This document shows, one piece after another, positions 1 to 60,030 of a DNA stretch of 64,000 nt. A model generated the notes under the pieces. It made no database searches, was not told the DNA's origin, and worked only from the letters and a program-made list of their open reading frames with translations. The stretch comes from Eledone cirrhosa (Eukaryota): the NCBI GenBank assembly GCA_964016885.1, contig OZ024766.1, forward strand, positions 19,530,001 through 19,594,000, given 5' to 3'. A program made the translations under genes and the position numbers. Numbering within the stretch: the stretch's first letter is position 1; every line of letters begins with the position of its first letter.

Positions 1-349
1 TCTCTCCAATGTAAGCAGTGATATTCCACGATGCTCTATAAACTATATCCTTCTAACTCTTGGGAGGTCTGCTCTATAGCCTTTACCCAAGAACTTCATT
101 CTTATATGACATTCTAACATGGTAATTGTCTGAGACCTGAGATGTGTAACTTGACAGTTCCTTGTGTAACAGTTCTTTCTACCTGGAAGGGGAAAATTGT
201 TGTGTAATTGCTTGGTAACAGTCAAAGGATTCTCACACATGGCAACCCTAGGCACCCCAATAACATGACTTGTGTTAGGCTTGTAGACACAATTAGTGGG
301 AATTTTTATTCCTAGGGATTACATAATTTTAGCGCTATTTTTTTTTTTT

Positions 350-420
350 CTGTTTGGATGCCTTTCCACTCATCAACCACTTTACAGCAAGGACTGGGTG
401 TATTGTTTGTGTCACTAGAG
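350..420 (-). mobile_element. Old degenerate SINE fragment present in every unit
   Basis: ggatgcctttccactcatcaaccactttacagc..ctgggtg resembles the ggatgcccttcctaacaccaacc..ttacagtg..ctgggtgc core of the younger SINEs at 18764, 47412 and (reverse complement) 60790. Confidence 0.55.
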
Positions 421-445
421 AGGTTATTTTAATGGTCTTAAGCTC

Positions 446-2145
<1,700 letters not shown>

Positions 2146-2280
2146 AAATTTCACCAGAGATAGAAAACCAGAATTAGTCATTTAGTTTACACAATGAGAC
2201 CACAACCCATCCTATTTATTTTAAATGGGTGGGGTGAATTAAGAGTGGGGTGGTGGTGTAAAAAATCTGAAAATTAAATG

Positions 2281-2434
2281 AGTGAGGGTGGGGGAAAATT
2301 ATTTGAGACCAAAGTGAGGGTGGGGGAAAATTATTTGAGACCTAAACGAGGGTAGGGGACAATTATTTGAGACCAAAGTGAGGGTGGGGAACGATTACAT
2401 CAGAAAAAAGTGAGGGTGGGGGACAATTATTTGA
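2281..2434 (+). repeat. G-rich ~32-bp tandem repeat (agtgagggtgggggaaaattatttgagaccaa), copy number varies by unit
   Basis: Direct reading; also at about 10861, 19084, 25884, 32540, 39545, 45404, 53954. Confidence 0.9.
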
Positions 2435-3375
2435 GCTACACACACATCTACTGAGTTACACACACATCTACAGAGCTACACACACATCTACTGAGTTACA
2501 TACACATCTACTGAGTTACACACACATCTACTTAGTTACACACACATCTACTGAGTTACATACACATCTACTGAGTTACATACACATCTAGTGAGTTACA
2601 TACACATCTAGTGAGTTACACACACATCTACTTAGTTACACACACATCTACTTAGTTACACACACATCAACTTAGTTACACACACATCTACTTAGTTACA
2701 CACACATCTACTGAGTTACATACACATCTACTGAGTTATACACACATCTACTGAGTTACACACTCATCTGAGTTATACACACATCTACTGAGTTATACAC
2801 ACATCTGAGTTAAACACACATCTACTGAGTTATACCCATATCTACTGAGTTACATACACATCTACTGAGTTACACACACATCTTCTGATTTACACACACA
2901 TCGGAGTTACATACACATCTACTGAGTTACACACACATCTACTGAGTTACACACACATCTACTGAGTTATACAGACATCTACTGATTGACACACACATCG
3001 GAGTTACATACACATCTACTGAGTTACACACACATCTACTGATTTACACACACATCTACTGAGTTACAACACATCTACTGAGTTATACACACATCTACTG
3101 AGTTATACACATCTACTGAGTTACACACACATCTACTGAGTTATACACATCTACTGAGTTACACACATCTACTGAGTTATACACACATCTACTGTGTTAT
3201 ATACACATGTACATAGTTATACACACATCTACAGAGTTACACACACATCTACTGAGTTATACACACATCTACTGAGTTACACACACATCTACAGAGTTAT
3301 ACACACATCTACTGAGTTACACACACATCTACTGAGTTACACACACATCTACTGAGTTACACACACATCTACTCA
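2435..3375 (+). repeat. 20-bp minisatellite (ctactgagttacacacacat)n
   Basis: Direct reading; homologous arrays at about 10950-11313, 19270-19570, 26069-26365, 32661-33304, 39633-40043, 45492-45934, 54074-54633. Confidence 0.95.
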
Positions 3376-4011
3376 TACATTTTTATAAATAGAGACATTA
3401 TACAAAATAATTATTATATACACTCACATCTATGAATGATTGAGGAAGAGCTGGTGAAACACTATAGCAATATGTGTTTCACCCCTTTTGGTTTTACCGG
3501 CTACATAGCCTATCCGTATTCTTATATCAGATGTGTAGGTGTATTATCTTGTCTAGTATGTATAATGTATGTATGTATATATACAATATATATACACATA
3601 TATATATATGCACATATACATATATATATACACATATATTTATACTTTATATATATATATATATATACTTTATATATATAAAGTATATAAATATTTAGAC
3701 AGAAAATACGGGAAAAATTAGTCAGAAATATTTTAAATATAAAACAGAATAAATTAATGAAAGAAACGTAAAACAGATAAAAATTGTTGAAATACCTTGA
3801 AAATATAAAATATAGAAGAAAGAGACAGGAATTGATTGAGTTTGAAGTAAATTAATGAATGAACGAAAGTAGGTGGGGCAGGAACAGGAAGTAAAGACAG
3901 TAGAGTCTCGCAGTGAATGGTAAGGTTTAGAGTAAGAATTATTTTGTTCCTGGTTGTATAAATAACATTACAAATATCGCAAATATAAAATAGATAAAAA
4001 TATATATACGT

Positions 4012-7503: not shown

Positions 7504-8781
7504 TTATGGGTTCTCAGTCATATGGGTACGTTTGTGTCTAGTTAAGGTACCACCTTCAGTGAATGATTTACCACAGATATCACAGTGGTGTGGCTTGTCT
7601 CCTGTATGGGTACGTAAGTGTTTAGTTAAGTTACTTCTTTCAGTGAATGATATACCACAGGTATCACAGTGGTATGGCTTGTCTCCTGTATGTATACGTT
7701 TGTGTCTAGTTAATGTACCATTTATAAAGAATGATTTACCACAGATATCACAGTGGTATGGCTTGTCTCCTGTATGGGTACGTAAGTGTGAAGTTAAGTT
7801 ACTACTATCAGAGAATGATTTACCACAGATATCACAGTGGTATGGCTTGTCTCCTGTATGTATACGTTTGTGTTTAGTTAAGGTACTACTAACAGAGAAT
7901 GATATACCACAGATATCACAGTGGTATGGCTTGTCCCCTGTATGTATACGTATGTGTGTAGTTAAGTGACTACTATCAGAGAATGATTTACCACAGATAT
8001 CACAGAGGTGTGGCTTCTCTCCTGTATGTATACGTTTGTGGGAAGTTAAGTGGCTACTTTGAGAGAATGATTTACCACAGATTTCACAGTGGTATGGCTT
8101 GTCTGCTGTATGTATATGTTTGTGTTTAGTTAAGTGACTACTATCAGAGAATGATATACCACAGATATCACAGTGGTATGGCTTGTCTCCTGTATGTATA
8201 CGTTTGTGTCTAGTTAAGGTACTACTTCGAGAGAATGATTTACCACAGATACCACAGTGGTGTGGCTTCTCTCCTGTATGCATACGTTTGTGGCAAGTTA
8301 ACTGACCACTTTGAGAGAATGATTTACCACAGATATCGCAGTGGTATGGCTTGTCTCCTGTATGTATACGTTTGTGTGGAATTAACTGACCATTTCGAGA
8401 GAATGATTTACCACAGATTTCGCAGTGGTATGGCTTGTCTCCTGTATGTATACGTTTGTGGCAAGTTAAGTGGCTACTTTGAGAGAATGATTTACCACAG
8501 ATATCGCATTGGTATGGCTTGTCTCCTGTATGGGTACGTTTGTGTGGAATTAACTGACCACTTCCAGAGAATGATTTACCACAGATTTCGCAGTGGTATG
8601 GCTTGTCTCCTGTATGTATACGTATGTGTCTAGTTAAGTTACTACTTATATAGAATGATTTACCACAGATATCACAGTGATATGGTTTCTCTCCTCTAGA
8701 CTTTGGCACCTCTTCTGGAATAGCCATATCTCTAGACAATGTTTCACATTTAATCTTCTTTTCACTCAATTTAGTTTCCAT
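7504..8781 (-). CDS. C2H2 zinc-finger protein A, 425 aa, 32-aa leader + 14 fingers
   Basis: Open ORF of CxxC-x12-HxxxH repeats with TGD/EKPY linkers, 84-bp period; aacATGG start with an in-frame upstream stop. Confidence 0.95.
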
Positions 8782-9156
8782 GTTTCTTCTTCCCTTGGCA
8801 GAATTTACAGATGTTATTCTTGTCTTATTTTATATATTATATTCCTGAAGATATTTCTTCAGCTATATTTCCGGCAACGGTGATCTCAGTCAAGATCTGA
8901 AGATGATGCAAACTTCTTTCTGATCCAAGTTTAGTTAAGATTCAAAATCATCTTGTAAATATTTCAGATGCTGATGAAACAATTCTTTTCCAAGACACAC
9001 AGTTCTGAGGAAATATCTCACAGTAATTCTGCCATAGATTTAAATAAACAGTGTTATATGAGTTCCTTATCAAAAGCTTTAGTCTTGAAATGATGATAAA
9101 TAGAGGGGATGTATTCAAGATTAAAAAATTATTTTATCCCAATGTCATCTGATATT

Positions 9157-9176
9157 CTGAAATAAGAAAGAAACAG
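9157..9176 (-). promoter_or_regulatory. Candidate 3' splice acceptor of the ZNF coding exon
   Basis: Minus strand ctgtttctttcttatttcAG|AATATC; invariant at 18028, 24830, 31736, 38745, 44594, 53071. Confidence 0.65.
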
Positions 9177-9706
9177 TATGAGATAATAGAGAATACTTTA
9201 GAAACAGAGATAGATTTAATGATAAACTGTAGATATCAACTTTCCTGTCCAGAGTTATTCTCTCCAATGTAAGCAGTGATATTCCATGATGCTCTATAAA
9301 CTATATCCTTCTAACTTTTGGGAGGTCTGCCCTATACCCTTTACCCAAGAACTTCACTCTTATATGACATTCTAACATGGTAATTGTCTGAGACCTGAGA
9401 TGTGTAACCTGACAGTTCCTTGAGTAACAGTTCTTTCTACCTGGAAGGGGAAAAGTGCTGTGTAATTGCTTGGTAACAGTCAAAGGATTCTCACACATGG
9501 CTACCCTAGGCACCCCAATAACATGACTTGTGTTAGGCTTGTAGACACAATTAGTAGGAATTTATATTCGTAGGGATTACATAATTTTAGCACTATTTTT
9601 TATCTTTTCTGTTTGGATGCCTTTCCTCTCATCAACCACTTTACAGCAAGGACTGGGTGTACTGTTTGTGACACTAGAGAGGTTATTTTAATGGTCTTAA
9701 GAGCTC

Positions 9707-12168: not shown

Positions 12169-12412
12169 AATATATACACACACACCAGGGCCGAAAAAGA
12201 CATAGAGAAAGTACAGGTTCGCAGTGAATATCTCAAGAATTATTTTATTCCTAGTTTTGTAAATAACATTACAAATTATACTTAGACGAAGAATGTGGAG
12301 TAGTAAATATATATATATATACACATAAATATGTGTATATATATATATATATATACATACACATAAATATGTGTATATATATATACACATAAATATGTGT
12401 ATATATATATAT

Positions 12413-13690
12413 ATGACTTGGGCTTTGGTGTTGGTGTAGAGCAGTGATATCAGGTCCACTATCCTCTTAGGGATTCCATAAGCCTGTAAGATCTTCATCA
12501 GGCAGTAACGGTCCACAGAATCAAAGGCCTTCCTAAAGTCAATGAAAACCATGACCGCAGGAAGGCACTTTGCTCTAGCTCCCTCTAATATCCTCCTCAG
12601 CATCAGGATGTGACTGGTGGTTGATCTACCCTCTCTGAAGCCGTTCTGGTTGTCCCTGAGCTTCTTCTCCATCTCAGGCTGGATCCTGTTAAGAATCATC
12701 CTGTTGAGGGTCTTTGCCACAAGCCCAAGTCATTACACCTGATGGGATGACAGAGTTCTTTGAGATACTGGGTGGAGTGCTCCAGGGAGATACATTGGCT
12801 CCCTACCTTTTTATCATCGTAGTGGACTATTGTATGCGCCTTGCACTGGAGAAACACCAGGACTCTGGCTTTACTGTAGCACCGGCTCAGAGCAGGAGAG
12901 TTGGGGCGAAAAAGGTATCGGATGCTGAATTTGCCGACGACATAGTTTTGGTGACAAATACAGTGAAGTGGGCAGAGGATTTGATGCGGGAGGTTGAGAC
13001 TGTGTCGATGAGTGTGGGGCTGAGAATGAATGAGACTAAAACAAAATATCTGGTAGAGAATGTTGAAAAGCCAGAGGGGATCACTAATGTAGGCGGGAAG
13101 CCACTGGAATTGGTTGAGGACTTCCTGTATTTGGGAGCAAAGATTGGGAATACGGAAGATGATGTGGTTGAGAGGAAGAGCAAGGCCTGGGCAGCGTGTC
13201 ACAGCTTGAGATCGGTGTGGAAGTCGGACCTTCGTAGAGACCTGAAAATCCGCCTCTTCATTGCTGTAGTGGAGTCTGTGCTGCTGTATGGGTCTGAGAC
13301 TTGGATACTGACCAAGAGACTCACTCAGATGGTGGATGGGTGCTACACGAGAATGCTGAGGATGGCTCTGAACATTAATCAGTATACACTGAGGATGAAA
13401 AACTCAGAGCTGTATGGGAGCATCCCAAAAGTCAGCTCAAAAGTGACACAGAGGAGACTGAGGTTGGCTGGACATGCTCACCGACATCCAGAGTTGACAT
13501 TGCACTCAGTGCTCCTTTGGGAGCCCCTACATGGACACACTAGAAGAGGAAGACCAAGATTAACATATGTTGATGCCCTAAGGACAGACACTGGTCTGTT
13601 GGAGATGCAGGATATGGCAGCGATAATGAGGGACAGAGACCGCTGGAGAGAACTCGTCCATGGATCTCGGGAATTTTACCCGCCTTAGAT
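12413..13690 (+). mobile_element. Young RTE-clade LINE, 5'-truncated with an inverted 5' segment (12413-12720 minus; 12721-13688 plus)
   Basis: Minus piece QNGFREGRST, FIDFRKAFDSV; plus piece GVLQGDTLAPYLF, FADD, LLYGSETW, GRPRLTY; both stop-free and contiguous in RT; empty (TA)n site in other units. Confidence 0.95.
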
Positions 13691-15554: not shown

Positions 15555-16420
15555 CAAGAGAATGATTTACCACAAACATCACAGTGATATAGTTCCTCTC
15601 CTGTATATGTTAGTGTCTAGTGAAGCCCCAACATTTAGACAATGATTTACCAGACATTACAGTGACATGGTTCCTCTCCTGTATGTGTTAGTGTCTAGTG
15701 AAGCCCCAACATTTAGACAATGATTTACCACAGACATCACAGTGATATAGTTCCTCTCCTGTATATGGTAGTGTCTAGTGAAGCCACAACATTTAGACAA
15801 TGATTTACTGCAGACATCACAGTGATATGGTTCCTCTCCTGTATATGGTAGTGTCTAGTGAAGGCACAACATTTAGACAATGATTTACTGCAGACATCAC
15901 AGTGATATGGTTCCTCTCCTGTAAATGTTAGTGTCTAGTGAAGCCACAACATTTAGAGAATGATTTACTGCAGACATCACAGTGATATGGTTCCTCTCCT
16001 GTAAATGTTAGTGTCTAGTGAAGCCACAACATTTAGACAATGATTTACTGCAGACATTACAGTGACATAGTTCCTCTCCTGTAAATGTTAGTGTCTAGTG
16101 AAGCCACAACATTTAGAGAATGATTTACTGCAGACATCACAGTGATATAGTTCCTCTCCTGTAAATGTTAGTGTCTAGTGAAGCCACAACATTTAGAGAA
16201 TGATTTACTGCAGACATCACAGTGATATAGTTCCTCTCCTGTAAATGTTAGTGCCGAATGAAGTGAGTTATTTCAGAGAATGATTTCCCACAGATATCAC
16301 AGTGATATGGTTTCTCTCCTGTATGTATATGTTTGTGTCTAGTTGAACAAGCTATCATGGATAACAATTTACCACAAATATTACAGTGATATGGCTTTTC
16401 TCCAGTACATATATGTTTGT
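15555..16420 (-). repeat. 80-bp zinc-finger-derived minisatellite (9 copies) plus two decayed fingers, 3' of gene B
   Basis: Period 80 (aagccacaac at 15781, aaggcacaac at 15861). Confidence 0.9.
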
Positions 16421-16594
16421 ATGAAGTTAATGCAGCAATGAAAGAGAATAGCCCAGTGGCATGGCTTCTCATATGAATATATTTGTGTTAATTCACCATT
16501 GTCAGACATTGAGATATTTTTGGGGTTATGGGTTCTCACCCATATGGGTATATTTGTGTCTAGTTAAACTACTTGATACAGAGAATGATTTACC

Positions 16595-17719
16595 TCAGAT
16601 ATCGCAGTGGTATGGCTTGTCTCCTGTATGGGTATATTTGTGTCTAGTTAAACTACTTGATACAGAGAATGATTTACCACAGATATCGCAGTGGTATGAC
16701 TTGTCTCCTGTATGGGTACGTAAGTGTTTAGTTAAGGTACTACTATCAGAGAATGATATACCACAGATATCACAGTGGTATGGCTTGTCTCCTGTATGTA
16801 TACGTTTGTGTCTAGCTAAGTGAATACTTCGAGAGAATGATTTCCCACAGATATCACAGAGGTGTGGCTTCTCTCCTGTATGTATACGTTTGTGGCAATT
16901 TAAGTTGCTACTTTGAGAGAATGATTTACCACAGATTTCGCAGTGGTATGGCTTGTCTCCTGTATGTATACGTTTGTGTCTAGTTAAGTGACTACTTTTA
17001 GAGAATGATATACCACAGATATCACAGTGGTATGGCTTGTCTCCTGTATGTATACGTATGTGTGTAGTTAAGTGACTACTTCGAGAGAATGATTTACCAC
17101 AGATATCACAATGGTGTGGCTTCTCTCCTGTATGCATACGTTTGTGGCTAGTTAAGTTGCTACTTTGAGAGAATGATTTACCACAGATTTCGCAGTGGTA
17201 TGGCTTGTCTGCTGTATGTATATGTTTGTGTTTAGTTAAGGTACTACTATCAGAGAATGATATACCACAGATATCACAGTGGTATGGCTTGTCTCCTGTA
17301 TGGGTACGTTTGTGTATAGTTAAGGTACTACTTCGAGAGAATGATTTACCACAGATATCACAGTGGTGTGGCTTCTCTCCTGTATGTATACGTTTGTGGC
17401 AAGTTAAGGCACTACGTTGAGAGAATGATTTACCACAGATATCGCAGTGGTATGGCTTGTCTCCTGTATGTATACGTATGTGTGTAGTTAAGGTACGACT
17501 ATAAGAGAATGATTTACCACAGATATCACAGTGGTACGGCTTGTCTCCTGTATGTATACGTTTGTGTGGAATTAACTGACCACTTTTAGAGAATGATTTA
17601 CCACAGACATCACAGTGATATGGTTTCTCTCCTCTAGACTTTGGCATCTCTGCTGGAATAGCCATATCTCTAGACAATGTTTCACATTTAATCTTCTTCT
17701 CACTCAATTTAGTTTCCAT
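16595..17719 (-). CDS. C2H2 zinc-finger protein B, 374 aa, 12 intact fingers; 13th finger cut by TGT>TGA
   Basis: ORF ends at CDI*; the frame continues to the family-standard stop at 16526-16528. Confidence 0.9.
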
Positions 17720-18618
17720 GTTTCTTCTTCCCTTGGCAGAATTTACAGATGTTATTCTTGTCTTATTTTATATGTTATATTCCTGAAGATATTTATTATG
17801 GTATATTTCCGGCAACGGTGATCTCAGTCAAGATCTGAAGATGATGCAAACTTCTTTCTGATCCAAGTTTAGTTAAGATTCAAAATCATCTTGTAAATAT
17901 TTCAGATGCTGATGAAACAATTCTTTTCCAAGAATTTTTCCAAGACGTACAGTTCTGAGGAACTATCTCACAGTAATTCTGCCATAGATTTATAAAAAAT
18001 AATTTTATCCCAATGTCATCTGATATTCTGAAATAAGAAAGAAACAGTATGAGATAATAGAGAATACTTTAGAAACAGAGATAGATTTGACATTGGAAAT
18101 TTTATATTTCTATATTGATAAACTGTAGATATCAACTTTTCTGTCCAGAGTTATTCTCTCCAATGTAAGCAGTGATATTCCACGATACTCTATAAACTAT
18201 ATCCTTCTAACTCTTGGGAGGTCTGCTCTATAGCCTTTACCCAAGAACTTCATTCTTATATGACATTCTAACATGGTAATTGTCTGAGACCTGAGATGTG
18301 TAACTTGACAGTTCCTTGAGTAACAGTTCTTTCTACCTGGAAGGGGATAAGTGCTGTGTAATTGCTTGATAACAGTCAAAGGATTCTCACACATGGCTAC
18401 CCTAGGCACCCCAATAACATGACTTGTGTTAGGCTTGTAGACACAATTAGTGGGAATTTTTATTCGTAGGGATTACATAATTTAAGCACTTTTTTTTATC
18501 TTTTCTGTTTGGATCCATTTCCTCTCATCAACCACTTTACAGCAAGGACTGGGTGTATTGTTTGTGGCACTAGAGAGGTTATTTTACTGGTCTTAAGAGC
18601 TCATATACATACATATAT

Positions 18619-18860
18619 ATCATCATCATCATCATCACCACCGTTTTACGTCCGTCCTTCCACGCTAGCATGGGTTAGGCGGGTTGTCCTGTTGTGTGCA
18701 GTGTCTGGTCGGCTGACCTTGTCTTGCTCATACAGGAACTGATCTGGCTTGATTTCTACAGCTGGATGCCCTTCCTAACACCAACCTCATTTACAGTGTG
18801 GGCTGGGTGCTTTTTTGCCGTGGCACCTAAACGACCATCTTGCGGTGGGGGGGGGGGGCA
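18619..18860 (-). mobile_element. 5'-truncated RTE-tailed SINE (shared with 25421-25660)
   Basis: (CAT)n tail, ttttacgtccg, ctggatgcccttcctaacaccaacc. Confidence 0.8.
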
Positions 18861-20338
18861 TATTGTTTATATATTTATATATATATATACATATGTATAT
18901 ATACATACATATATACATATGTATATATACATATGTATATATACATATAAATTACACCAGAGATAGAAAACCAGAATTAGTCATTTAGTTTACATAATGA
19001 GACCACAACCCATCCTATTTATTTTTAATGGGTGGGGTGAATTAAGAGTGGGGTGGTGGTGTAAAAAATCTGAAAATTAAATGAGTGAGGGTGGGGGAAA
19101 ATTATTTGAGACCAAAGTGAGGGTGGGGAACGATTATTTGAGACGAAAGTGAGGGTGGGGGAAAATTATTTGAGACCTAAGCGAGGGTAGGGGACAATTA
19201 TTTGAGTCCAAAGTGAGGGTGGTGAACGATTATTTCAGAAAAAAGTGAGGGTGGGGGACAATTATTTGAGCTACACACACATCTACTAAGTTACACACAC
19301 ATCTATTGAGTTACACACACATCTACTGAGTTATATACATCTAATGAGTTACACACACACATCTACCGAGTTACACACATATCTACTGAGTTACATACAC
19401 ATCTACTGAGTTACACACACATCTACTGAGTTACACACACATCTACTGAGTTACACACACATCTACTGAGTTACACACACATCTACTGAGTTACATACAC
19501 ATCTACAGAGTTACACACACATCTACTGTGTTATATACACATGTACATAGTTATACACACATCTACTCATACATTTTTTATAAATAGACACATTATACAA
19601 AATAATTATTATATACACACACATCTATGAATGATTGAGGAAGAGCTGGTGAAACACTATAGCAATGTGTTTCACCCCTTTTGGTTTTACCGGCTACATA
19701 GCCTATCCGTATTCTTATATCAGATGTGAAGGTGTATTATCTTGTCTAGTATGTATAATGTATGTATACACATATATATATGCATATATACATGAATACA
19801 TATATATATATATACTCATATATTTATATATATATATAGACATATATTTATATATACATATTTATATATACTTTATATATATAAAGTATATAAATATTTA
19901 GACAGAAAATAGGGGAAAAATTAGTCAGAAATATTTTAAATATAAAACGGAATAAATTAATGAAAGAAACGTAAAACAGATAAAATTTGTTGAAATACCT
20001 TGAAAATATAAAATATAGAAGAAAGAGACAGGAATTGATTGAGTTTGAAGTAAATTAATGAATGAACGAAAGTAGGTGGGGCAGGAACAGGAAGTAAAGA
20101 CAGTAGAGTCTCGCAGTTGAATGGTAAGGTTTAGAGTAAGAATTATTTTATTCCTGGTTGTATAAATAACATTACAAATTATACTTAGACGAATAATATG
20201 CTGTAGTATATATATTTATCAAAGAGCCGAACAGCAAGTACAGTCTCGCAGTGAATGGTAAGTGTTAGGGGAGGAATTATTTTATTCCTGGTTGTATTAA
20301 TAACATTACAAATATCAAATAGATAAAAAAACATATAC

Positions 20339-20379
<41 letters not shown>

Positions 20380-20532
20380 CACACACCAGGTCCGAACAAG
20401 ATATAGAGAAAGTACAGGTTCGCAGTGAATATCTCAAGAATTATTTTATTCCTAGTTTTGTAAATAACATTACAAATTATACTTAGACGAAGAATGTGGT
20501 GTAGTAAACATATATATATATAAACACATAAA

Positions 20533-20576
<44 letters not shown>

Positions 20577-22429
20577 TACCAATGAATACAGTGAAGAATT
20601 TAGTATAAAAGTTGGTGTTCATCAAGGCTCTGTCCTTAGCCCCCTCTTATTTATTATTGCCCTTCAGGCTAAAACAGAGGAGTTTAAGACTGGCTGCTCA
20701 TGGGAACTTCTATACACAGATGATCTAACAGCTGAACTAGATAAGAAATTCCAAACATGGAAGCATGGCCTAGAATCAAAAGGCCTTAAAGTTAACTTGT
20801 CTAAGACTAAAGTTCTAGTATGTAGGAAGGAAGATTGGGCACAGGTGCCCTCTGTGAAATGGCCATGTTCAGTGTGTAGGAAAGGAGTAGGTAGTAATTC
20901 CATTTTATGTCCCAAATACAAACTATGGGTACATAACAGACGTACTGGGAACACAGGCCAGCTATCTAAGAACGTAGATTTTATATGTGGCTGATGCTCA
21001 GGTGCAATAAGTAGCAAGTTCCAGACGTCGGACCTTCAATATATCCATACCCAGGGAGGCAAGGCATTCAGAGTATGGTAGATGCTTGATGGAGGGTATT
21101 CACTTGGTTGCACGTGTCTAAACTATTTCCAGGAGGTCAATGTTCTGAGCAAGATAGGGGTTCCAGACTCGTGATGCAATTTCTAAGTGTGGCCGCACCA
21201 TAGCTATATACAGCTTTAAATAGATAGATAAATGCATGGTCGTACACTTGTACACAGCCAGCTTGAGTTGCCAGTCCGTGGTCCATTGTTGCATTGTGTC
21301 CAGATCTATAGTGTTCAGGATCTGTCCTTTTTATCTTAATAGACAGCTTGATGTCATCTGCATATTTCAGTACTGTGACATACTTTAAGTTGCCATCTAT
21401 GTAATTAATAGATGTGTAACGGAATTCTCCTATAAATTACCTGGCGAAGATTCAAAACCGAATCTAAGAGTTCTCGCATCTGGGACCACCTATCGTTGCG
21501 AGTTTCCCACCATTGTCCTGTCAAGAGACAACAATGATGAACATACATGCCACTTGACCTGTGACCCCAGCTTCAAGATAGCTGAAACTCACATGGCTAC
21601 TCATAAATCAACCCTGTATACACATCTAGCTATAGGGTTATTATAAATACAAGTACAAAGGGAATCCAGCAGCCAGACCACGAAGCAGTAGTCCTTAAGA
21701 GAATAATGATGTGAAACATTCACGTTCTACAGACCTTGGGGTCTGCAGACTTCTACTGACCTTTTACTCTATCCCTCTCTCCTGGCCTTACTTGATCTCA
21801 CCTTCTCGGCCACAGACTACACCACCAGACAATAGAGACCGAAGCAGCAGTCCTTGAGAGGAATAACAAATACTAAGGATACACACACACTCAGTAGGTT
21901 TCATTATACTGTTTACTTCTGTGTTTTATCTATTCTTTTGTCTTCCTGTTGAATCACTTCTCGTGTATCGTTGTATTGATACATACATACACGCTAGCTC
22001 GAAGTAGCTAGTCAGAAAATTGATGTAGTGATAATTCCTGTCACAATTTTTATTACTTGATATTCAATGTAGCAACAAGTTAATATTGTTATTGTAAAAT
22101 AAACATTGTCAACATCACAATTCTGGCATTATTCTTTTTATCATTCATACACAAAAGAATACATGTATCCACTACATATGCAACAAACAAAAGGGGACAC
22201 AAATTTCTACACACATACATTCACATATATATAGCGTATGTAAATTCTGAACAATACAGATTTGTCAGCACAAGTCTTGGTTACAACTTCTACAAATAAA
22301 ATGAAAGGAGAAGAATTTCTTAGTAAAACAGTTTTATTCAAAATATTAACAACATTGGTGGCACAATTTTGGGTGAGTGATATGGTTTTTATCTTGTCTG
22401 ATTGTGTTGCATTAAGTAATCTTTACAAG

Positions 22430-23055
22430 AGAATGATTTACCACAGACATCACAGTGATAAAGTTCCTCTCCTGTATATGTTAGTGTCTAGTGAAGCCAC
22501 AACATTTAGACAATGATTTACCACAGACATCACAGTGATATAGTTCCTCTCCTGTATATGTTAGTGTCTAGTGAAGCCACAACATTTAGAGAATGATTTA
22601 CCACAGACATCACAGTGATATGGTTCCTCTCCTGTAAATGTTAGTGTCTAGTGAAGCCCCAACATTTAGAGAATGATTTACTGCAGACATCACAGTGATA
22701 TAGTTCCTCTCCTGTAAATGTTAGTGTCTAGTGAAGCCACAACATTTAGAGAATGATTTACTGCAGACATTACAGTGATATAGTTCCTCTCCTGTAAATG
22801 TTAGTGTCTAGTGAAGCCACAACATTTAGAGAATGATTTACTGCAGACATTACAGTGATATAGTTCCTCTCCTGTAAATGTTAGTGTCTAGTGAAGCCAC
22901 AATATTTAGAGAATGATTTACTGCAGACATTACAGTGATATGGTTTCTGTCCTGTATGTATGTGTTTGTGTCTAATTGAACAAGCTATCATGGATAACAA
23001 TTTACCACAAATATTACAGTGATATGGCTTTTCTCCAGTGTATATATGTTTGTAT
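22430..23055 (-). repeat. 80-bp dead-finger minisatellite (6 copies) plus decayed fingers, 3' of gene C
   Basis: Same unit, period 80. Confidence 0.9.
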
Positions 23056-23159
23056 GAAGTTAATGCTGCAATGAAAGAGAATAGCACAGTGGCATGGCTT
23101 CTCATATGAATGTATTTGTGTTTAATTCACCATTTTCAGACGATGAGATATTTTTTTGG

Positions 23160-24521
23160 TTATGGGTTCACAGCCATATGGGTATATTTGTGTCTAGTTA
23201 AACTACTTGATACAGAGAATGATTTACCACAGATATCGCAGTCGTATGGCTTGTCTCCTGTATGGGTACGTAAGTGTTTAGTTAAGGTACTACTATCAGA
23301 GAATGATATACCACAGATATCACAGTGGTATGGCTTGTCTCCTGTATGGGTATATTTGTGTCTAGTTAAACTACTTGATACAGAGAATAATTTACCACAG
23401 ATATCACAGTGGTATGACTTGTCTCCTGTATGGGTACGTAAGTGTTTAGTTAAGGTACTACTATCAGAGAATGATATACCACAGATATCACAGTGGTATG
23501 GCTTGTCTCCTGTATGTATACGTTTGTGGCAAGTTAAGTGACTACTTCGAGAGAATGATTTACCACAGATATCACAGTGGTATGGCTTGTCTCCTGTATG
23601 GGTACGTTTATGTCTAGTTAAACTACTTGATACAGAGAATAATTTACCACAGATATTGCAGTGGTATGGCTTGTCTCCTGTATGGGTATATTTGTGTCTA
23701 GTTAAACTACTTGAAACAGAGAATAATTTACTACAGATATCACAGTGGTATGGCTTGTCTTGTGTATGGGTATATTTGTGTCTAGTTAAACTACTTGAAA
23801 CAGAGAATAATTTACCACAGATATCACAGTGGTATGACTTGTCTCCTGTATGGGTACGTAAGTGTTTAGTTAAGGTACTACTATCAGAGAATGATATACC
23901 ACAGATATCACAGTGGTATGGCTTGTCTCCTGTATGTATACGTTTGTGTCTAGTTAAGTGAATACTTCGAGAGAATGATTTACCACAGATATCACAGAGG
24001 TGTGGCTTCTCTCCTGTATGTATATGTTTGTGGCAAGTTAAGTTGCTACTTTGAGAGAATGATTTACCACAGATATCACAGTGGTATGGCTTGTCTCCTG
24101 TATGTATACGTTTGTGTCTAGTTAAGTGACTACTTTTAGAGAATGATATACCACAGATATCACAGTGGTATGGCTTGTCTCCTGTATGTATACGTATGTG
24201 TGTAGTTAAGTGACTACTTCGAGAGAATGATCTACCACAGATATCACAACGGTGTGGCTTCTCTCCTGTATGTATACGTTTGTGCCTAGTTAAGTCACTA
24301 CTTTGAGAGAATGATTTACCACAGATATCACAGTGGTACGGCTTGTCTCCTGTATGTATACGTTTGTGTGGAATTAACTGACCACTTTTAGAGAATGATT
24401 TACCACAGACATCACAGTGATATGGTTTCTCTCCTCTAGACTTTGGCATCTCTGCTGGAATAGCCATATCTCTAGACAATGTTTCACATTTAATCTTCTT
24501 CTCACTCAATTTAGTTTCCAT
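23160..24521 (-). CDS. C2H2 zinc-finger protein C, 453 aa, 15 fingers
   Basis: Intact ORF, same leader and finger scaffold. Confidence 0.95.
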
Positions 24522-25420
24522 GTTTCTTCTTCCCTTGGCAGAATTTACAGATGTTATTCTTGTCTTATTTTATATATTATATTCCTGAAGATATTTATTA
24601 TGGTATATTTCCGGCAACGGTGATCTCAGTCAAGATCTGAAGATGATGCAAACTTCTTTCTGATCCAAGTTTAGTTAAGATTCAAAATCATCTTGTAAAT
24701 ATTTCAGATGCTGATGAAACAATACTTTTCCAAGAATTTTTCCAAGACGTACAGTTCTGAGGAAATATCTCACAGTAATTCTGCCATAGATTTATAAAAA
24801 ATAATTTTATCCCAATGTCATCTGATATTCTGAAATAAGAAAGAAACAGTATGAGATAATAGAGAATACTTTAGAAACAGAGATAGATTTGACATTGGAA
24901 ATTTTATATTTCTATATTGATAAACTGTAGATATCAACTTTTCTGTCCAGAGTTATTCTCTCCAATGTAAGCAGTGATATTCCACGATACTCTATAAACT
25001 ATATCCATCTAACTCTTGGGAGGTCTGCTCTATAGCCTTTACCCAAGAACTTCATTCTTATATGACATTCTAACATGGTAATTGTCTGAGACCTGAGATG
25101 TGTAACTTGACAGTTCCTTGAGTAACAGTTCTTTCTACCTGGAAGGGGATAAGTGCTGTGTAATTGCTTGATAACAGTCAAAGGATTCTCACACATGGCT
25201 ACCCTAGGCACCCCAATAACATGACTTGTGTTAGGCTTGTAGACACAATTAGTGGGAATTTTTATTCGTAGGGATTACATAATTTAAGCACTTTTTTTTA
25301 TCTTTTCTGTTTGGATCCATTTCCTCTCATCAACCACTTTACAGCAAGGACTGGGTGTATTGTTTGTGGCACTAGAGAGGTTATTTTACTGGTCTTAAGA
25401 GCTCATATACATACATATAT

Positions 25421-25660
25421 ATCATCATCATCATCACCACCGTTTTACGTCCGTCCTTCCACGCTAGCATGGGTTAGGCGGGTTGTCCTGTTGTGTGCAG
25501 TGTCTGGTCGGCTGACCTTGTCTTGCTCAGACAGCAACTGATCTGGCTTGATTTCTACAGCTGGATGCCCTTCCTAACACCAACCTCATTTACAGTGTGG
25601 GCTGGGTGCTTTTTTGCCGTGGCACCTCCGCGACCACCTTGCGGTGGGGGGGGGGGGGCA
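25421..25660 (-). mobile_element. 5'-truncated RTE-tailed SINE, duplicate of 18619-18860
   Basis: Near-identical sequence at the same position in the unit. Confidence 0.8.
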
Positions 25661-27156
25661 TATTGTTTATATATTTATATATATATATACATATGTATAT
25701 ATACATACATATATACATATGTATATATACATATGTATATATACATATAAATTACACCAGAGATAGAAAACCAGAATTAATTATTTAGTTTACATAATGA
25801 GACCACAACCCATCCTATTTATTTTTAATGGGTGGGGTGAATTAAGAGTGGGGTGGTGGTGTAAAAAATCTGAAAATTAAATGAGTGAGGGTGGGGGAAA
25901 ATTATTTGAGACCAAAGTGAGGGTGGGGAACGATTATTTGAGACGAAAGTGAGGGTGGGGGAAAATTATTTGAGACCTAAGCGAGGGTAGGGGACAATTA
26001 TTTGAGTCCAAAGTGAGGGTGGTGAACGATTATTTCAGAAAAAAGTGAGGGTAGGGGACAATTATTTGAGCTACACACACATCTACTGAGTTACACACAC
26101 ATCTATTGAGTTACACACACATCTACTGAGTTATATACATCTAATGAGTTACACACACACATCTACCGAGTTACACACATATCTACTGAGTTACATACAC
26201 ATCTACTGAGTTACACACACATCTACTGAGTTACACACACATCTACAGAGTTACACACACATCTGAGTTATACACACATCTACTGAGTTATACACACATC
26301 TACTGAGTTACACACACATCTACTGAGTTACACACACAACTACTGAGTTATACACACATCTACTCATACATTTTTATAAATAGACACATTATACAAAATA
26401 ATTATTATATACACACACATCTATGAATGATTGAGGAAGAGCTGGTGAAACACTGTAGCAATATGTGTGTTTCACCCATTTTGGTTTTACCGGCTACATA
26501 GCCTATCCGTATTCTTATATCAGATGTGAAGGTGTATTATCTTGTCTAGTATGTATAATGTATGTATACACATATATATATGCATATATACATGAATACA
26601 TATATATATATATACTCATATATTTATATATACTTTATATATATATATATATATACTTTATATATATACTTTATATATATATATATACTTTATATATATA
26701 AAGTATATATAAATATTTAGACAGAAAATAGGGGAAAAATTAGTCAGAAATATTTTAAATATAAAACGGAATAAATTAATGAAAGAAACGTAAAACAGAT
26801 AAAATTTGTTGAAATACCTTGAAAATATAAAATATAGAAGAAAGAGACAGGAATTGATTGAGTTTGAAGTAAATCAATGAATGAACGAAAGTAGGTGGCG
26901 CAGGAACAGGAAATAAAGACAGTACAGTCTCGCAGTGAATGGTAAGGTTTAGCGTAAGAATTATTTTGTTCCTGGTTGTATCAATAACATTACAAATTAT
27001 ACTTAGACGAATAATATGCTGTAGTATATATATTTATCAAAGAGCCGAACAGCAAGTACAGTCTCGCAGTGAATGGTAAGTGTTAGGGGAAGAATTATTT
27101 TATTCCTGGTTGTATTAATAACATTACAAATATCAAATAGATAAAAAAACATATAC

Positions 27157-27201
<45 letters not shown>

Positions 27202-29217
27202 CACACACCAGGTCCGAACAAGATATAGAGAAAGTACAGGTTCGCAGTGAATATCTCAAGAATTATTTTATTCCTAGTTTTGTAAATAACATTACAAATT
27301 ATACTTAGACGAAGAATGTGGTGTAGTAAACATATATATATATAAACACATAAATATATGTGTATATATATATATAGAATTACCAATGAATACAGTGAAG
27401 AATTTAGTATAAAAGTTGGTGTTCATCAAGGCTCTGTCCTTAGCCCCCTCTTATTTATTATTGCCCTTCAGGCTAAAACAGAGGAGTTTAAGACTGGCTG
27501 CTCATGGGAACTTCTATACACAGATGATCTAACAGCTGAACTAGATAAGAAATTCCAAACATGGAAGCATGGCCTAGAATCAAAAGGCCTTAAAGTTAAC
27601 TTGTCTAAGACTAAAGTTCTAGTATGTAGGAAGGAAGATTGGGCACAGGTGCCCTCTGGGAAATGGCCATGTTCAGTGTGTAGGAAAGGAGTAGGTAGTA
27701 ATTCCATTTTATGTCCCAAATACAAACTATGGGTACATAACAGACGTACTGGGAACGCAGGCCAGCTATATAAGAACGTAGATTTTATATGTGGCTGATG
27801 CTCAGGTGCAATAAGTAGCAAGTTCCAGACGTCGGACCTTCAATGTATCCATACCCAGGGAGGCAAGGCATTCAGAGTATGGTAGATACTTGATGGAGGG
27901 TATTCACTTGGTTGCACGTCTCTAAACAATTTCCAGATCAATGTTCTGAGCAAGATAGGGGTTCCAGACTGGTGATGCAAATTCTAAGTGTGGCCGCACC
28001 ATAGCTATTTACAGCTTTAAATAGATAGATAAATGCATGGTCGTACACTTGTACACAGCCAGCTTGAGTTGCCAGTCCGTGGTCCATTGCTGCATTGTGT
28101 CCAGATCTATAGTGTTCAGGATCTGTCCTATTTATCTCAAAGGACAGCTTGATGTCATCTGCATATTTCAGTACTGTGACACTCTTTAAGTTGCCATCTA
28201 TGTCATTAATAGATGTGTAACGGAATTCTCCTATAAATTACTTGCCGAATCTAAAAGTTCTCGCATCTGGGACCACCTATCGTTGCGAGTTTCCCACCAT
28301 TGTCCTGTCAAGAGACAACAATGATGAACATACATGCCACTTGACCTGTGACCCCAGCTTCAAGATAGCTGAAACTCACATGGCTACTCATAAATCAACC
28401 CTGTATACACATCTAGCTATAGGGTTATTATAAATACAAGTACAAAGGGAATCCAGCAGCCAGACCACGAAGCAGTAGTCCTTAAGAGAATAATGATGTG
28501 AAACATTCACGTTCTACAGACCTCTTGGGGTCTGCAGACTTCTACTGACCTTTTACTCTATCCCTCTCTCCTGGCCTTACTTGATCTCACCTTCTCGGCC
28601 ACAGACTACAACACCAGACAATAGAGACCGAAGCAGCAGTCCTTGAGAGGAATAACAAATACTAAGGATACACACACACTCAGTAGGTTTCATTATACTG
28701 TTTACTTCTGTGTTTTATCTATTCTTTTGTCTTCCTGTTGAATCACTTCTCGTGTATCGTTGTATTGATACATACATACACGCTAGCTCGAAGTAGCTAG
28801 TCAGAAAATTGATGTAGTGATAATTCCTGTCACAATTTTTATTACTTGATATTCAATGTAGCAACAAGTTAATATTGTTATTGTAAAATAAACATTGTCA
28901 ACATCACAATTCTGGCATTATTCTTTTCATCATTCATACACAAAAGAATACATTTATCCACTACATATGCAACAAACAAAAGGGGACACAAATTTCTACA
29001 CACATACATTCACATATATATAGCGTATGTAAATTCTGAACAATACAGATTTGTCAGCACAAGTCTTGGTTACAACTTCTACAAATAAAATGAAAGGAGA
29101 AGAATTTCTTAGTAAAACAGTTTTATTCAAAATATTAACAACATTGGTGGCACAATTTTGGGTGTGTGGTATGGTTTTTATCTTGTCCGATTGTGTTGCA
29201 TTAAGTAATCTTTACAA

Positions 29218-29765
29218 GAGAATGATTTACCACAGACATCACAGTGATAAAGTTCCTCTCCTGTATATGTTAGTGTCTAGTGAAGCCACAACATTTAGAC
29301 AATGATTTACCACAGACATCACAGTGATATAGTTCCTCTCCTGTATATGTTAGTGTCTAGTGAAGCCACAACATTTAGACAATGATTTACTGCAGACATC
29401 ACAGTGATATAGTTCCTCTCCTGTAAATGTTAGTGTCTAGTGAAGCCACAACATTTAGAGAATGATTTACTGCAGACATTACAGTGATATAGTTCCTCTC
29501 CTGTAAATGTTAGTGTCTAGTGAAGCCACAACATTTAGAGAATGATTTACTGCAGACATTACAGTGATGTAGTTCCTCTCCTGTAAATGTTAGTGTCTAG
29601 TGAAGCCACAATATTTAGAGAATGATTTACTGCAGACATTACAGTGATATGGTTTCTGTCCTGTATGTATGTGTTTGTGTCTAATTGAACAAGCTATCAT
29701 GGATAACAATTTACCACAAATATTACAGTGATATGGCTTTTCTCCAGTATATATATGTTTGTATG
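29218..29765 (-). repeat. 80-bp dead-finger minisatellite (5 copies) plus decayed fingers, 3' of gene D
   Basis: Same unit, period 80. Confidence 0.9.
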
Positions 29766-29868
29766 AAGTTAATGCAGCAATGAAAGAGAATAGCACAGTG
29801 GCATGGCTTCTCATATGAATGTATTTGTGTTTAATTCACCATTTTCAGACGATGAGATATTTTTTTGG

Positions 29869-31314
29869 TTATGGGTTCACAGCCATATGGGTATATTTGT
29901 GTCTAGTTAAACTACTTGATACAGAGAATGATTTACCACAGATATCGCAGTCGTATGGCTTGTCTCCTGTATGGGTACGTAAGTGTTTAGTTAAGGTACT
30001 ACTATCAGAGAATGATTTACCACAGATATCACAGTGGTATGGCTTGACTCCTGTATGGGTATATTTGTGTCTAGTTAAACTACTTGATACAGAGAATAAT
30101 TTACCACAGATATCACAGTGGTATGGGTTGTCTCCTGTATGTATACGTTTGTGGCAAGTTAAGTGACTACTTCGAGAGAATGATTTACCACAGATATCAC
30201 AGTGGTATGGCTTGTCTCCTGTATGGGTACGTTTATGTCTAGTTAAACTACTTGATACAGAGAATAATTTACCACAGATATTGCAGTGGTATGGCTTGTC
30301 TCCTATATGGGTATATTTGTGTCTAGTTAAACTACTTGAAACAGAGAATAATTTACTACAGATATCACAGTGGTATGGCTTGTCTTCTGTATGGGTATAT
30401 TTGTGTCTAGTTAAACTACTTGAAACAGAGAATAATTTACCACAGATATCACAGTGGTATGAATTGTCTCCTGTATGGGTACGTAAGTGTTTAGTTAAGG
30501 TACTACTATCAGAGAATGATATACCACAGATATCACAGTGGTATGGCTTGTCTCCTGTATGTATACGTTTGTGTCTAGTTAAGTGAATACTTCGAGAGAA
30601 TGATTTACCACAGATATCACAGAGGTGTGGCTTCTCTCCTGTATGTATATGTTTGTGGCAAGTTAAGTTGCTACTTTGAGAGAATGATTTACCACAGATA
30701 TCACAGTGGTATGGCTTGTCTCCTGTATGTATACGTTTGTGTCTAGTTAAGTGACTACTTTTAGAGAATGATATACCACAGATATCACAGTGGTATGGCT
30801 TGTCTCCTGTATGTATACGTATGTGTGTAGATAAGTGACTACTTCGAGAGAATGATCTACCACAGATATCACAACGGTGTGGCTTCTCTCCTGTATGTAT
30901 ACGTTTGTGGCTAGTTAAGTTGCTACTTTGAGAGAATGATTTACCACAGATTTCGCAGTGGTATGGCCTCTCTGCTGTATGTATACGTATGTGTGTAGTT
31001 AAGGTACTACTATCAGAGAATGATTTACCACAGATATCACAGTGGTACGGCTTGTCTCCTGTATGTATACGTTTGTGTGGAATTAACTGACCACTTTGAG
31101 AGAATGATTTACCACAGATATCGCAGTGGTATGGCTTGTCTCCTGTATGTATACGTTTGTGTGGAATTAACTGACAATTTTGAGAGAATGATTTACCACA
31201 GATATCACAGTGATATGGTTTCTCTCCTCTAGACTTTGGCACCTCTTCTGGAATAGCCATATCTCTAGACAATGTTTCACATTTAATCTTCTTCTCACTC
31301 AATTTAGTTTCCAT
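29869..31314 (-). CDS. C2H2 zinc-finger protein D, 481 aa, 16 fingers
   Basis: Intact ORF, same leader and finger scaffold. Confidence 0.95.
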
Positions 31315-55486: not shown

Positions 55487-55659
55487 ATTGGTAAAATATG
55501 ACGTTCGGGAAATTGAAACTAGTTTTTCTGACAAGTGAATGTGTTTGTTTTTTGTTTTTTTACAATGAAATTTACGATACACTCTTTGTTTATTTACAAC
55601 AGGTCTCTATAGTGATATGGTGTTAATTAGTATTGCGTGTGTGATTATTTTCTCTTATA

Positions 55660-58600: not shown

Positions 58601-60030
58601 ATGTATATATATATGTGTGTGGGTGTGTATATGTGTGTCTGTATGTATATATATATGTGTGTGGGTGTGTATATGTGTGTCTGTATGTATATATATATGT
58701 GTGTGGGTGTGTATATGTGTGTATATATATGTGTGTCTGTATGTATATATATATATGTGTGTGTGGGTGTGTATATGTGTGTCTGTATGTATATATATAT
58801 GTGTGTGGGTGTGTATATCTGTGTATATATATGTGTATCTGTATGTATATATATATATGTGTGTGGGTGTGTATATGTGTGTATATATATGTGTGTCTGT
58901 ATGTATATATATATATATGTGTGGGTGTGTATATGTGTGTATATATATGTGTGTCTGTATGTATATATATATGTGTGTGGGTGTGTATATATATGTGTGT
59001 CTGTATGTGTATATATATATATATGTGTGTGGGTGTGTATATGTGTGTATATATATGTGTGTCTGTATGTATATATATATGTGTGTGGGTGTGTATATGT
59101 ATGTATATATATGTGTGTCTGTATATATATATATGTGTGGGTGTGTATATGTGTGTCTGTATGTATATATATATGTGTGTGGGTGTGTATATGTGTGTAT
59201 ATATATGTGTGTCTGTATGTATATATATATATGTGTGGGTGTGTATATGTGTGTATATATATGTGTGTCTGTATGTATATATATATATGTGTGGGTGTGT
59301 ATATGTGTGTATATATATGTGTGTCTGTATGTATATATATATGTGTGTGGGTGTGTATATGTGTGTATATATATGTGTGTCTGTATGTATATATATATGT
59401 GTGTGGGTGTGTATATGTGTGTATATATATGTGTATCTGTATGTATATATATATATGTGTGTGGGTGTGTATATGTGTGTATATATATGTGTGTCTGTAT
59501 GTATATATATATATATGTGTGGGTGTGTATATGTGTGTATATATATGTGTGTCTGTATGTATATATATATGTGTGTGGGTGTGTATATATATGTGTGTCT
59601 GTATGTGTATATATATATATATGTGTGTGGGTGTGTATATGTGTGTATATATATGTGTGTCTGTATGTATATATATATGTGTGTGGGTGTGTATATGTAT
59701 GTATATATATGTGTGTCTGTATATATATATATGTGTGGGTGTGTATATGTGTGTCTGTATGTATATATATATGTGTGTGGGTGTGTATATGTGTGTATAT
59801 ATATGTGTGCCTGTATGTATATATATATATGTGTGGGTGTGTATATGTGTGTATATATATGTGTGTCTGTATGTATATATATATGTGTGTGGGTGTGTAT
59901 ATGTGTGTATATATATGTGTGTCTGTATGTATATATATATATGTGTGTGGGTGTGTATATGTGTGTATATATATGTGTGTCTGTATGTATATATATATAT
60001 GTGTGTTTGTATATATATATATGTGTTTGT
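55660..60030. repeat. ~4.4-kb compound (GT/AT) minisatellite, unit about 50 bp (gtgtgggtgtgtatatgtgtgtatatatatgtgtgtctgtatgtatatatatat)
   Basis: Direct reading. Confidence 0.97.

What the first reader, a model, noticed from the sequence alone, without database searches (positions are those of the whole stretch)
16526..31314. Gene C appears born as a B-head/D-tail chimera by unequal crossover inside the finger arrays
Seen: spacer B-C (17720-23159) and spacer C-D (24522-29868) share private marks: the SINE at 18619/25421, a ~80-bp 5'-flank deletion (about 17993/24794), TGCSW in the RTE fossil and an extra ACA (about 22349/29138). C's leader and finger 1 (PAEMP..CDVC..KSGQLIP) equal B's. C fingers 3-11 match D fingers 5-13, including the rare CSKLF and CNIC variants, and both end MAVNP. 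Inference: the duplication breakpoint lies near finger 2 of C, so adding a gene copy produced a new finger combination in the same event.
Basis: partly seen in the sequence, partly recalled or inferred. Interest (0 to 1): 0.75.

Follow-up and report, generated by a model that had tools for sequence, protein, structure and literature searches.

The report
Hybrid zinc-finger gene from one duplication
In a long row of zinc-finger genes, likely from an octopus, one gene has the front end and upstream DNA of one neighbour and most of the DNA-reading fingers of the other, likely because a misaligned crossover copied one 6.8-kb unit starting inside the gene; this is a clean but textbook way to make hybrid genes.

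Summary
The chimera is confirmed in the assembly. Against 45 paralogues, C's 5' flank pairs with B (4/901 differences; 27/899 to D) and its 3' flank with D (9/1397; 45/1389 to B). Informative sites switch from 30 B:3 D to 6 B:53 D. The duplicated stretch is one 6.8-kb period with its junction at finger 2, the geometry of anti-Lepore globin fusions. Corrections: the extra ACA and CNIC are not private, and the SINE-like insert probably is not. Finger 2's helix is closest to a third finger type. B and D arrays were already relatives. Fingers 12-14 likely changed later, and spacer C-D carries a conversion patch from a distant unit. The birth therefore mainly put D's fingers behind B's upstream DNA. 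Three other mapped duplications break outside finger arrays: 1 of 4, with arrays covering about 20% of the cluster, so no enrichment. Head/tail mosaics are common here. Public reads could not test an assembly artefact (about 7%). Expression of C is unshown. The scan noted finger shuffling in such clusters before, on other DNA. Real, neat, ordinary mechanism.

The parts
23160..24521 (-). Gene C: intact 453-aa ORF, 29-aa leader plus 15 C2H2 fingers; the chimeric gene
24306..24521 (-). B-derived part of C's coding sequence (leader, finger 1, first half of finger 2): 216 bases identical to B
24250..24388 (-). Junction interval. One-step model: 21-bp B2/D4 identity at 24306-24326. Two-step model: the 83-bp B1-2/D2-3 identity (24306-24388 in C). 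Upper bound on the D side: the first D-type site in finger 3
23511..24266 (-). C fingers 3-11 = D fingers 5-13 (4 differences in 756 bases)
23259..23510 (-). C fingers 12-14: near-copies of C7/C8/C7 replacing D14-15-type fingers; likely a change after birth, since D14 = E12 marks the older state
16526..17719 (-). Gene B (head donor): 12 intact fingers, stop codon in finger 13 at 16595-16597
29869..31314 (-). Gene D (tail donor): 16 fingers
17504..24305 (.). Left copy of the duplicated period (B head, spacer B-C, C tail), 6802 bases
24306..30930 (.). Right copy of the duplicated period (C head, spacer C-D, D tail up to D finger 4)
24795..24795 (-). 81-bp deletion in the 5' flank, shared only with B (17993)
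25455..25630 (+). Dispersed SINE-like repeat, 98.8% identical to the copy at 18656-18830
27346..27798 (+). Reverse-transcriptase fossil carried by every unit, with the TGCSW variant; twin at 20524-20994 (Pfam RVT_1; RTE clade not tested)
27845..28255 (.). Gene-conversion patch in spacer C-D: 18 substitutions and 2 indels follow the u455/u507 upstream spacer (46 or 98 kb away), not spacer B-C; one site goes the other way

Best explanation
Gene C has B's upstream region and head joined at finger 2 to D's fingers and 3' flank, likely because neighbouring genes B and D misaligned through their look-alike fingers and crossed over, duplicating one 6.8-kb unit. SHOWN: the two spacers are each other's closest relatives among 46 units; the shared sequence covers one period (17504-24305 ~ 24306-30930); C switches parent inside finger 2; the frame stays open because fingers are 84-base units. 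INFERRED: the ancestor read E-D-B-A; the exchange was out of register (B finger 2 with D finger 4), or in register in the 83-bp B1-2/D2-3 identity followed by loss of one finger; afterwards short conversions and slippage rewrote finger 2's helix, fingers 12-14 and a patch of spacer C-D. LIKELY EFFECT (inferred, untested): a protein that reads much the same DNA as D's fingers 5-13, lacks D's first four fingers, and is expressed under B's upstream DNA - a regulatory swap more than a new specificity.
For: 5' flank: C-B 4/901, C-D 27/899. 3' flank: C-D 2/276 and 7/1121, C-B 17/275 and 28/1114. Trees: B+C SH-aLRT 99 in the 5' flank (42 rows), C+D 99 in the 3' flank (40 rows); the AU test rejects C+D in the 5' flank, p=0.0275. 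Informative sites 30 B:3 D before finger 2 and 6 B:53 D after it, Fisher p=5e-15; finger 2 itself reads B then D. C is the only one of 38 interior genes with head within 1% of its downstream neighbour and tail within 1% of its upstream neighbour (some cells missing). Private 81-bp deletion and TGCSW. No N gap in the 264 kb examined. No second copy of the B/C head among the 40 best genome matches.
Against: The AU test does not reject B+C in the 3' flank (p=0.078). C finger 2 is not a clean B2/D4 hybrid: the best hybrid leaves 3 differences, while the whole finger is 2 bases from u470/u521 finger 2, so an extra event is needed. C12-14 differ from D14-15. Four T2 sites and two array sites follow B. 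The Fisher test treats linked sites as independent. No read or contig was seen that spans the junction. Expression of C is not shown.
Confidence: 0.68

Rival explanations
1. Same product, other machinery: a replication or repair template switch (break-induced replication, fork slippage) from D finger 4 to B finger 2 at about 21 bases of identity made the duplication, not a reciprocal meiotic crossover.
For: The one-step junction has only 21 bp of perfect identity in fingers that are 83% alike, short for classical non-allelic crossover (own knowledge). Finger 2's third-party helix could be a short templated insert from a multi-switch event.
Against: An 83-bp perfect stretch and six 97-98% alike fingers between B and D offer enough homology for misalignment. 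No non-templated bases at the junction.
Confidence: 0.15
2. A whole gene was duplicated with a junction in a spacer, and long gene-conversion tracts later overwrote the head or tail (and upstream spacer) of C, B or D, mimicking a crossover product.
For: Conversion is demonstrably active here (patch at 27845-28255). B, C, D and E share an internal run of fingers. In 10 of 17 units with a relative within 1.5% on one side, that relative is 3% or more away on the other side. Globin fusions of both origins look alike (PMC4041002, passages).
Against: Similarity covers one period and stops on both sides: D's upstream spacer and B's 3' flank have no close relative in B/C/D. The one tract mapped is 0.4-0.6 kb; this model needs several kilobases overwritten.
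Confidence: 0.08
3. Assembly artefact: two haplotypes of D-spacer-B were joined head to tail inside the finger arrays, so C does not exist and the two spacers are alleles.
For: Divergence outside the conversion patch (0.4-0.7%) is within what alleles could show. Nearby 52-kb and 13.5-kb near-identical blocks are the kind of structure that false duplication produces. Reads gave no spanning evidence.
Against: No gap in the region. A false overlap would be expected in register across the 97-98% alike run B7-12/D5-10 and would leave C with B's six head fingers; C has two. C finger 2 carries letters found in neither parent. If the 52-kb twins were alleles, allelic divergence would be 0.0-0.4% in most blocks, mostly below the B/C/D values.
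Confidence: 0.07

Closest known systems
[quoted passage not shown]
   Same: Unequal crossover between tandem paralogues adds a gene with the downstream gene's 5' region and head and the upstream gene's tail, lying between intact parents; effect largely a promoter swap; later conversion blurs the record.
   Different: Here the coding region is itself a tandem repeat, so the exchange can be out of register and change finger number and order while keeping the frame; about 45 paralogues rather than two; no expression or phenotype known.
Young mouse KRAB-zinc-finger clusters (PMC12575710, PMC5363842, PMC13709654; passages read)
   Same: Tandem ZNF clusters expanding by segmental duplication and non-allelic recombination, with arrays that drift and shift between close paralogues.
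   Different: In the passages read the recombination scars are chimeric LINEs and ERVs at block boundaries, not a junction mapped inside a finger. Gene C shows no KRAB, SCAN or SET family among the 25 best of 30 Pfam hits.
Octopod C2H2-ZNF clusters (PMC9795677, passages; PMC10547256, passages; the 2015 octopus genome paper was not held, recalled only)
   Same: Large tandem clusters of many-finger genes on small chromosomes, attributed to tandem duplication.
   Different: The passages read describe numbers, positions, ages and predicted targets, not breakpoints. That this genome is an octopus is my inference (3.0-Gb genome, AT microsatellites, gene type); the protein search returned only generic ZNF hits.
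PRDM9-type finger minisatellite shuffling (search listing only; otherwise recalled)
   Same: 84-base units exchanged, copied and lost within arrays, with variation at the helix.
   Different: PRDM9 shuffles alleles of one locus; here exchange is between paralogues and one event also changed gene number. No PR/SET domain in C's exon.

Membership tests
Anti-Lepore-type chimeric duplicate | 5' flank and head from the downstream paralogue | tested here: met
   4/901 to B vs 27/899 to D; 216 coding bases identical to B
Anti-Lepore-type chimeric duplicate | Tail and 3' flank from the upstream paralogue | tested here: met
   9/1397 to D vs 45/1389 to B; C3-11 vs D5-13 4/756; AU test of the alternative only p=0.078
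Anti-Lepore-type chimeric duplicate | Lies between both parents, with the intergenic spacer duplicated (copy number +1) | tested here: met
   Spacers 98.7% identical and mutual best matches in most 300-bp windows
Anti-Lepore-type chimeric duplicate | One switch point in sequence homologous between the parents | tested here: met
   Switch within finger 2, interval 24250-24388; scattered later patches
Anti-Lepore-type chimeric duplicate | Made by reciprocal crossover (reciprocal deletion allele or pre-duplication haplotype exists) | not testable with these tools
   No second haplotype or relative genome on hand; public reads uninformative
Tandem C2H2 (Kruppel-type) zinc-finger protein | Repeated C-x2-C-x12-H-x3-H fingers with TGEKP-like linkers in one exon | tested here: met
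   15 fingers at 84-base spacing; Pfam zf-H2C2_2 5e-120, zf-C2H2 9e-83
KRAB-ZFP | N-terminal KRAB domain | tested here: not met
   Not among the 25 of 30 Pfam families shown; an in-frame stop lies 16 codons upstream of the ATG; upstream exons of C were not identified
Functional transcription factor | C is transcribed and its protein binds DNA | tested here: inconclusive
   One run of unrecorded kind holds family contigs, none shown to be C's own

The most novel reading that the evidence does not exclude
In these clusters gene birth is coupled to recombination of parts: the finger arrays act as preferred, frame-preserving crossover substrates with many registers, so upstream regions and finger arrays are reassorted among about 45 paralogues faster than they diverge, and each new copy is born with a new pairing of expression pattern and DNA target. 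C would be the one event young and clean enough to read; the cluster-wide decoupling of heads and tails (same nearest neighbour in 5 of 31 units, rank correlation 0.10) would be its long-term trace.
Probability: 0.15. Interest if true: 0.6.

Novelty: new member of a known kind. Interest (0 to 1): 0.3.

Why it matters
It is a base-resolved example of a zinc-finger gene born as a hybrid, in a lineage whose large ZNF expansion is usually described only by counts. It shows that duplicates need not start redundant: C likely pairs one gene's upstream DNA with another's fingers from the first generation. It also warns that trees and age estimates of these genes built from whole sequences mix several histories. 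The mechanism itself is textbook, and nothing here shows that C is expressed, selected or typical.

Tried and rejected
Public reads: one search listed 23 runs, none holding half of the sampled words. I laid 7 of them. One search (4 contig sets) gave only short pieces, none spanning finger 2-3; (3 RAD-seq runs and one contig set again) gave near-zero depth over gene C. Neither supports or refutes the junction; empty bins over the deletion prove nothing. Enrichment of junctions in arrays: not found. The 52-kb block breaks in a spacer about 3.6 kb upstream of u477; the 13.5-kb block 0.3-1.8 kb upstream of u1008; u950/u959 are whole-gene copies with blurred ends outside the array head. With C that is 1 of 4, against 19-22% array content; four events give little power. 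A shared first exon or trans-splicing for the cluster, suggested by a contig end that maps to a splice donor on contig C2, was dropped: a C2 paralogue with a matching acceptor region lies about 2 kb downstream of that donor. A second loose end maps beside another paralogue at C27:17.65 Mb. Finger 2 as a clean B2/D4 or B2/B6 hybrid: leaves 3 or 4 differences. Protein search found no close relative with the leader among the 120 listed. The finger catalogue (638) is incomplete for units with broken fingers; 4 of 46 units dropped out of the 5' block and 6 of the long 3' block on coverage. Literature: 8 searches, aimed at chimeric ZNF genes made by crossover in the array, returned no paper holding the required terms; the library lacks most subscription papers and no supplements were read, so this is no proof of absence.

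Full report
Setting. The window holds eight units of a tandem array; each has a minus-strand, single-exon C2H2 zinc-finger ORF and a 5-10 kb spacer with degenerate fingers, a reverse-transcriptase fossil and AT microsatellites. It lies at G000:C27:19.53-19.594 Mb in a 3.0-Gb genome, likely an octopus (inference). I fetched the rest of this cluster, the inverted cluster at 19.92-20.07 Mb and two outliers and found 46 units. Units outside the window are named by position (u455 = 19.455 Mb). Transcription order is E, D, C, B, A.

Observation. Spacers B-C and C-D are 98.7% identical and each other's best match in most 300-bp windows. The 81-bp deletion (2 of 46 units) and TGCSW (2 of 33) are private. 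The extra ACA is in 5 of 41 units, and a similar SINE-like copy sits at about the same place in u1032. C equals B for 216 bases from the ATG. C3-C11 match D5-D13 at 752 of 756 bases and the last fingers are identical. CSKLF is private to C and D among 638 fingers; CNIC alone is not (21 of 638).

Chimera test. In the 5' flank C differs from B at 4 of 901 and from D at 27 of 899 columns. In two 3' blocks C differs from D at 2 of 276 and 7 of 1121, from B at 17 of 275 and 28 of 1114. Cluster medians are 3.4%, 5.3% and 3.3%. Trees put C with B (support 99) on the 5' side and with D (99) on the 3' side; the AU test rejects C+D on the 5' side (p=0.0275) but does not reject B+C on the 3' side (p=0.078). 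Sites at which B and D differ read 30 B:3 D before finger 2 and 6 B:53 D after it. The shared sequence spans one period, 17504-24305 against 24306-30930, and stops there: D's upstream spacer and B's 3' flank have no close relative among B, C and D. That is what one tandem duplication with its junction inside the gene predicts.

The junction. Finger 2 follows B for its first 45 bases and then mostly D finger 4; the two parents share 21 identical bases there (24306-24326). Three letters in the helix fit neither parent, and the finger as a whole is 2-3 bases from the QSSDLTR finger 2 of u470, u521 and G. B and D are also old relatives: B1-2 and D2-3 share 83 identical bases and a rare codon found only in B2, C2 and D3, and B6-12 parallel D4-10. 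So the exchange was either out of register in one step, or in register followed by loss of a finger; either way a further small conversion or mutation is needed. The safe interval is 24250-24388.

After birth (inferred). C12-14 are near-copies of C7/C8/C7, while D14 equals E12, so C changed. Spacer C-D at 27845-28255 follows the u455/u507 spacer at 18 substitutions and 2 indels, with one contrary site, while spacer B-C keeps its own version: a conversion from a unit 46 or 98 kb away. B has a stop in finger 13. All four C/D differences in fingers 3-11 change an amino acid; too few to read as selection.

How it likely works. B and D misaligned through their look-alike fingers and exchanged; because fingers are 84 bases, the product kept its frame. 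C received B's whole upstream spacer and leader, and D's fingers from the fifth on. It is predicted to bind much as D's core does but under B's control, as in anti-Lepore globin fusions (PMC4041002, passages read). Binding and expression are untested. A template switch would give the same sequence.

Is it special? C is the only one of 38 interior genes with the anti-Lepore pattern below 1% on both sides. Mosaicism is otherwise common: with the twin blocks collapsed, 5 of 31 units have the same nearest neighbour on both sides, and 10 of the 17 units with a relative within 1.5% on one side are 3% or more from it on the other (most distances cluster near 3%, so nearest neighbours are noisy). Three other young duplications (52 kb, 13.5 kb, u950/u959) break outside arrays. 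One junction of four in arrays that fill 19-22% of the clusters is what chance gives.

Artefact. No public run spans the junction. Against an artefact: no gap in 264 kb, no second B/C head among the 40 best genome matches, and a structure that an in-register false overlap would not give. It remains possible, about 7%.

Known systems. Mouse KRAB-ZFP clusters expand by non-allelic recombination, with scars described in transposons (PMC12575710, passages; PMC5363842, passages; PMC13709654, passages). Octopod ZNF clusters are known as tandem expansions (PMC9795677, passages; PMC10547256, passages). Three searches for a ZNF gene with a mapped in-array duplication junction returned no paper with the required terms; the library is incomplete and supplements were not read. 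Earlier notes of this scan describe finger shuffling in similar clusters on other DNA; none covers this place.

Verdict. Observation confirmed with small corrections; interpretation right on structure and junction, overstated on new finger combination and not shown to be a general rule. New member of a known kind; interest 0.3.

Noticed in passing
G000:C27:19.428-19.481 Mb vs 19.481-19.534 Mb (L001-L011, reaching window 1-4000): A 52-kb, seven-gene tandem duplication, 99.6-100% identical in most unique kilobases, with finger-number differences (u477 25, u529 27) and a junction in a spacer; very young or a false duplication.
   Followed up: partly
G000:C27:19.995-20.021 Mb (L030-L033): A 13.5-kb two-gene duplication (u995/u1001 to u1008/u1015), 99.8% identical, in which u1001 and u1015 already differ in finger number.
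   Followed up: partly
window 7504-9660 (gene A): Gene A is another mosaic: 5' flank closest to u602 (1.3%), array 98% identical to u463/u515.
   Followed up: partly
window 12170-13690: A second, longer reverse-transcriptase fragment (326-aa open frame at 12708-13688) is inserted only in spacer A-B among the units examined.
   Followed up: no
window 19890-20220: Possible second conversion patch: spacer B-C and spacer C-D differ at 8 substitutions and 1 indel here, with B-C matching other paralogues at most of them; donor and direction unclear.
   Followed up: partly
window 16595-16597: Gene B has a stop codon at the second cysteine of finger 13, losing its last finger and tail.
   Followed up: no
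window 15600-16420, 22430-23050, 29220-29760: Downstream of each stop lies a run of degenerate, frameshifted 80-bp finger relics whose copy number varies between units (B-C has one more than C-D).
   Followed up: no
G000:C27:19.93-20.07 Mb: A second cluster of the same gene family lies about 320 kb away in the opposite orientation, and several spacer windows have their best match across the two clusters.
   Followed up: no
L041, L043 (G000:C2:105.38 Mb): A related, more diverged ZNF cluster on contig C2; a public contig joins a splice donor there to a family acceptor, suggesting a spliced 5' exon about 2 kb upstream of a ZNF exon.
   Followed up: partly
window 445-2149 and 55650-60030: Very long AT-rich microsatellite expansions (1.7 and 4.4 kb) inside otherwise homologous spacers; u477 and u529 twins differ by about 600 bases in such a run.
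   Followed up: no
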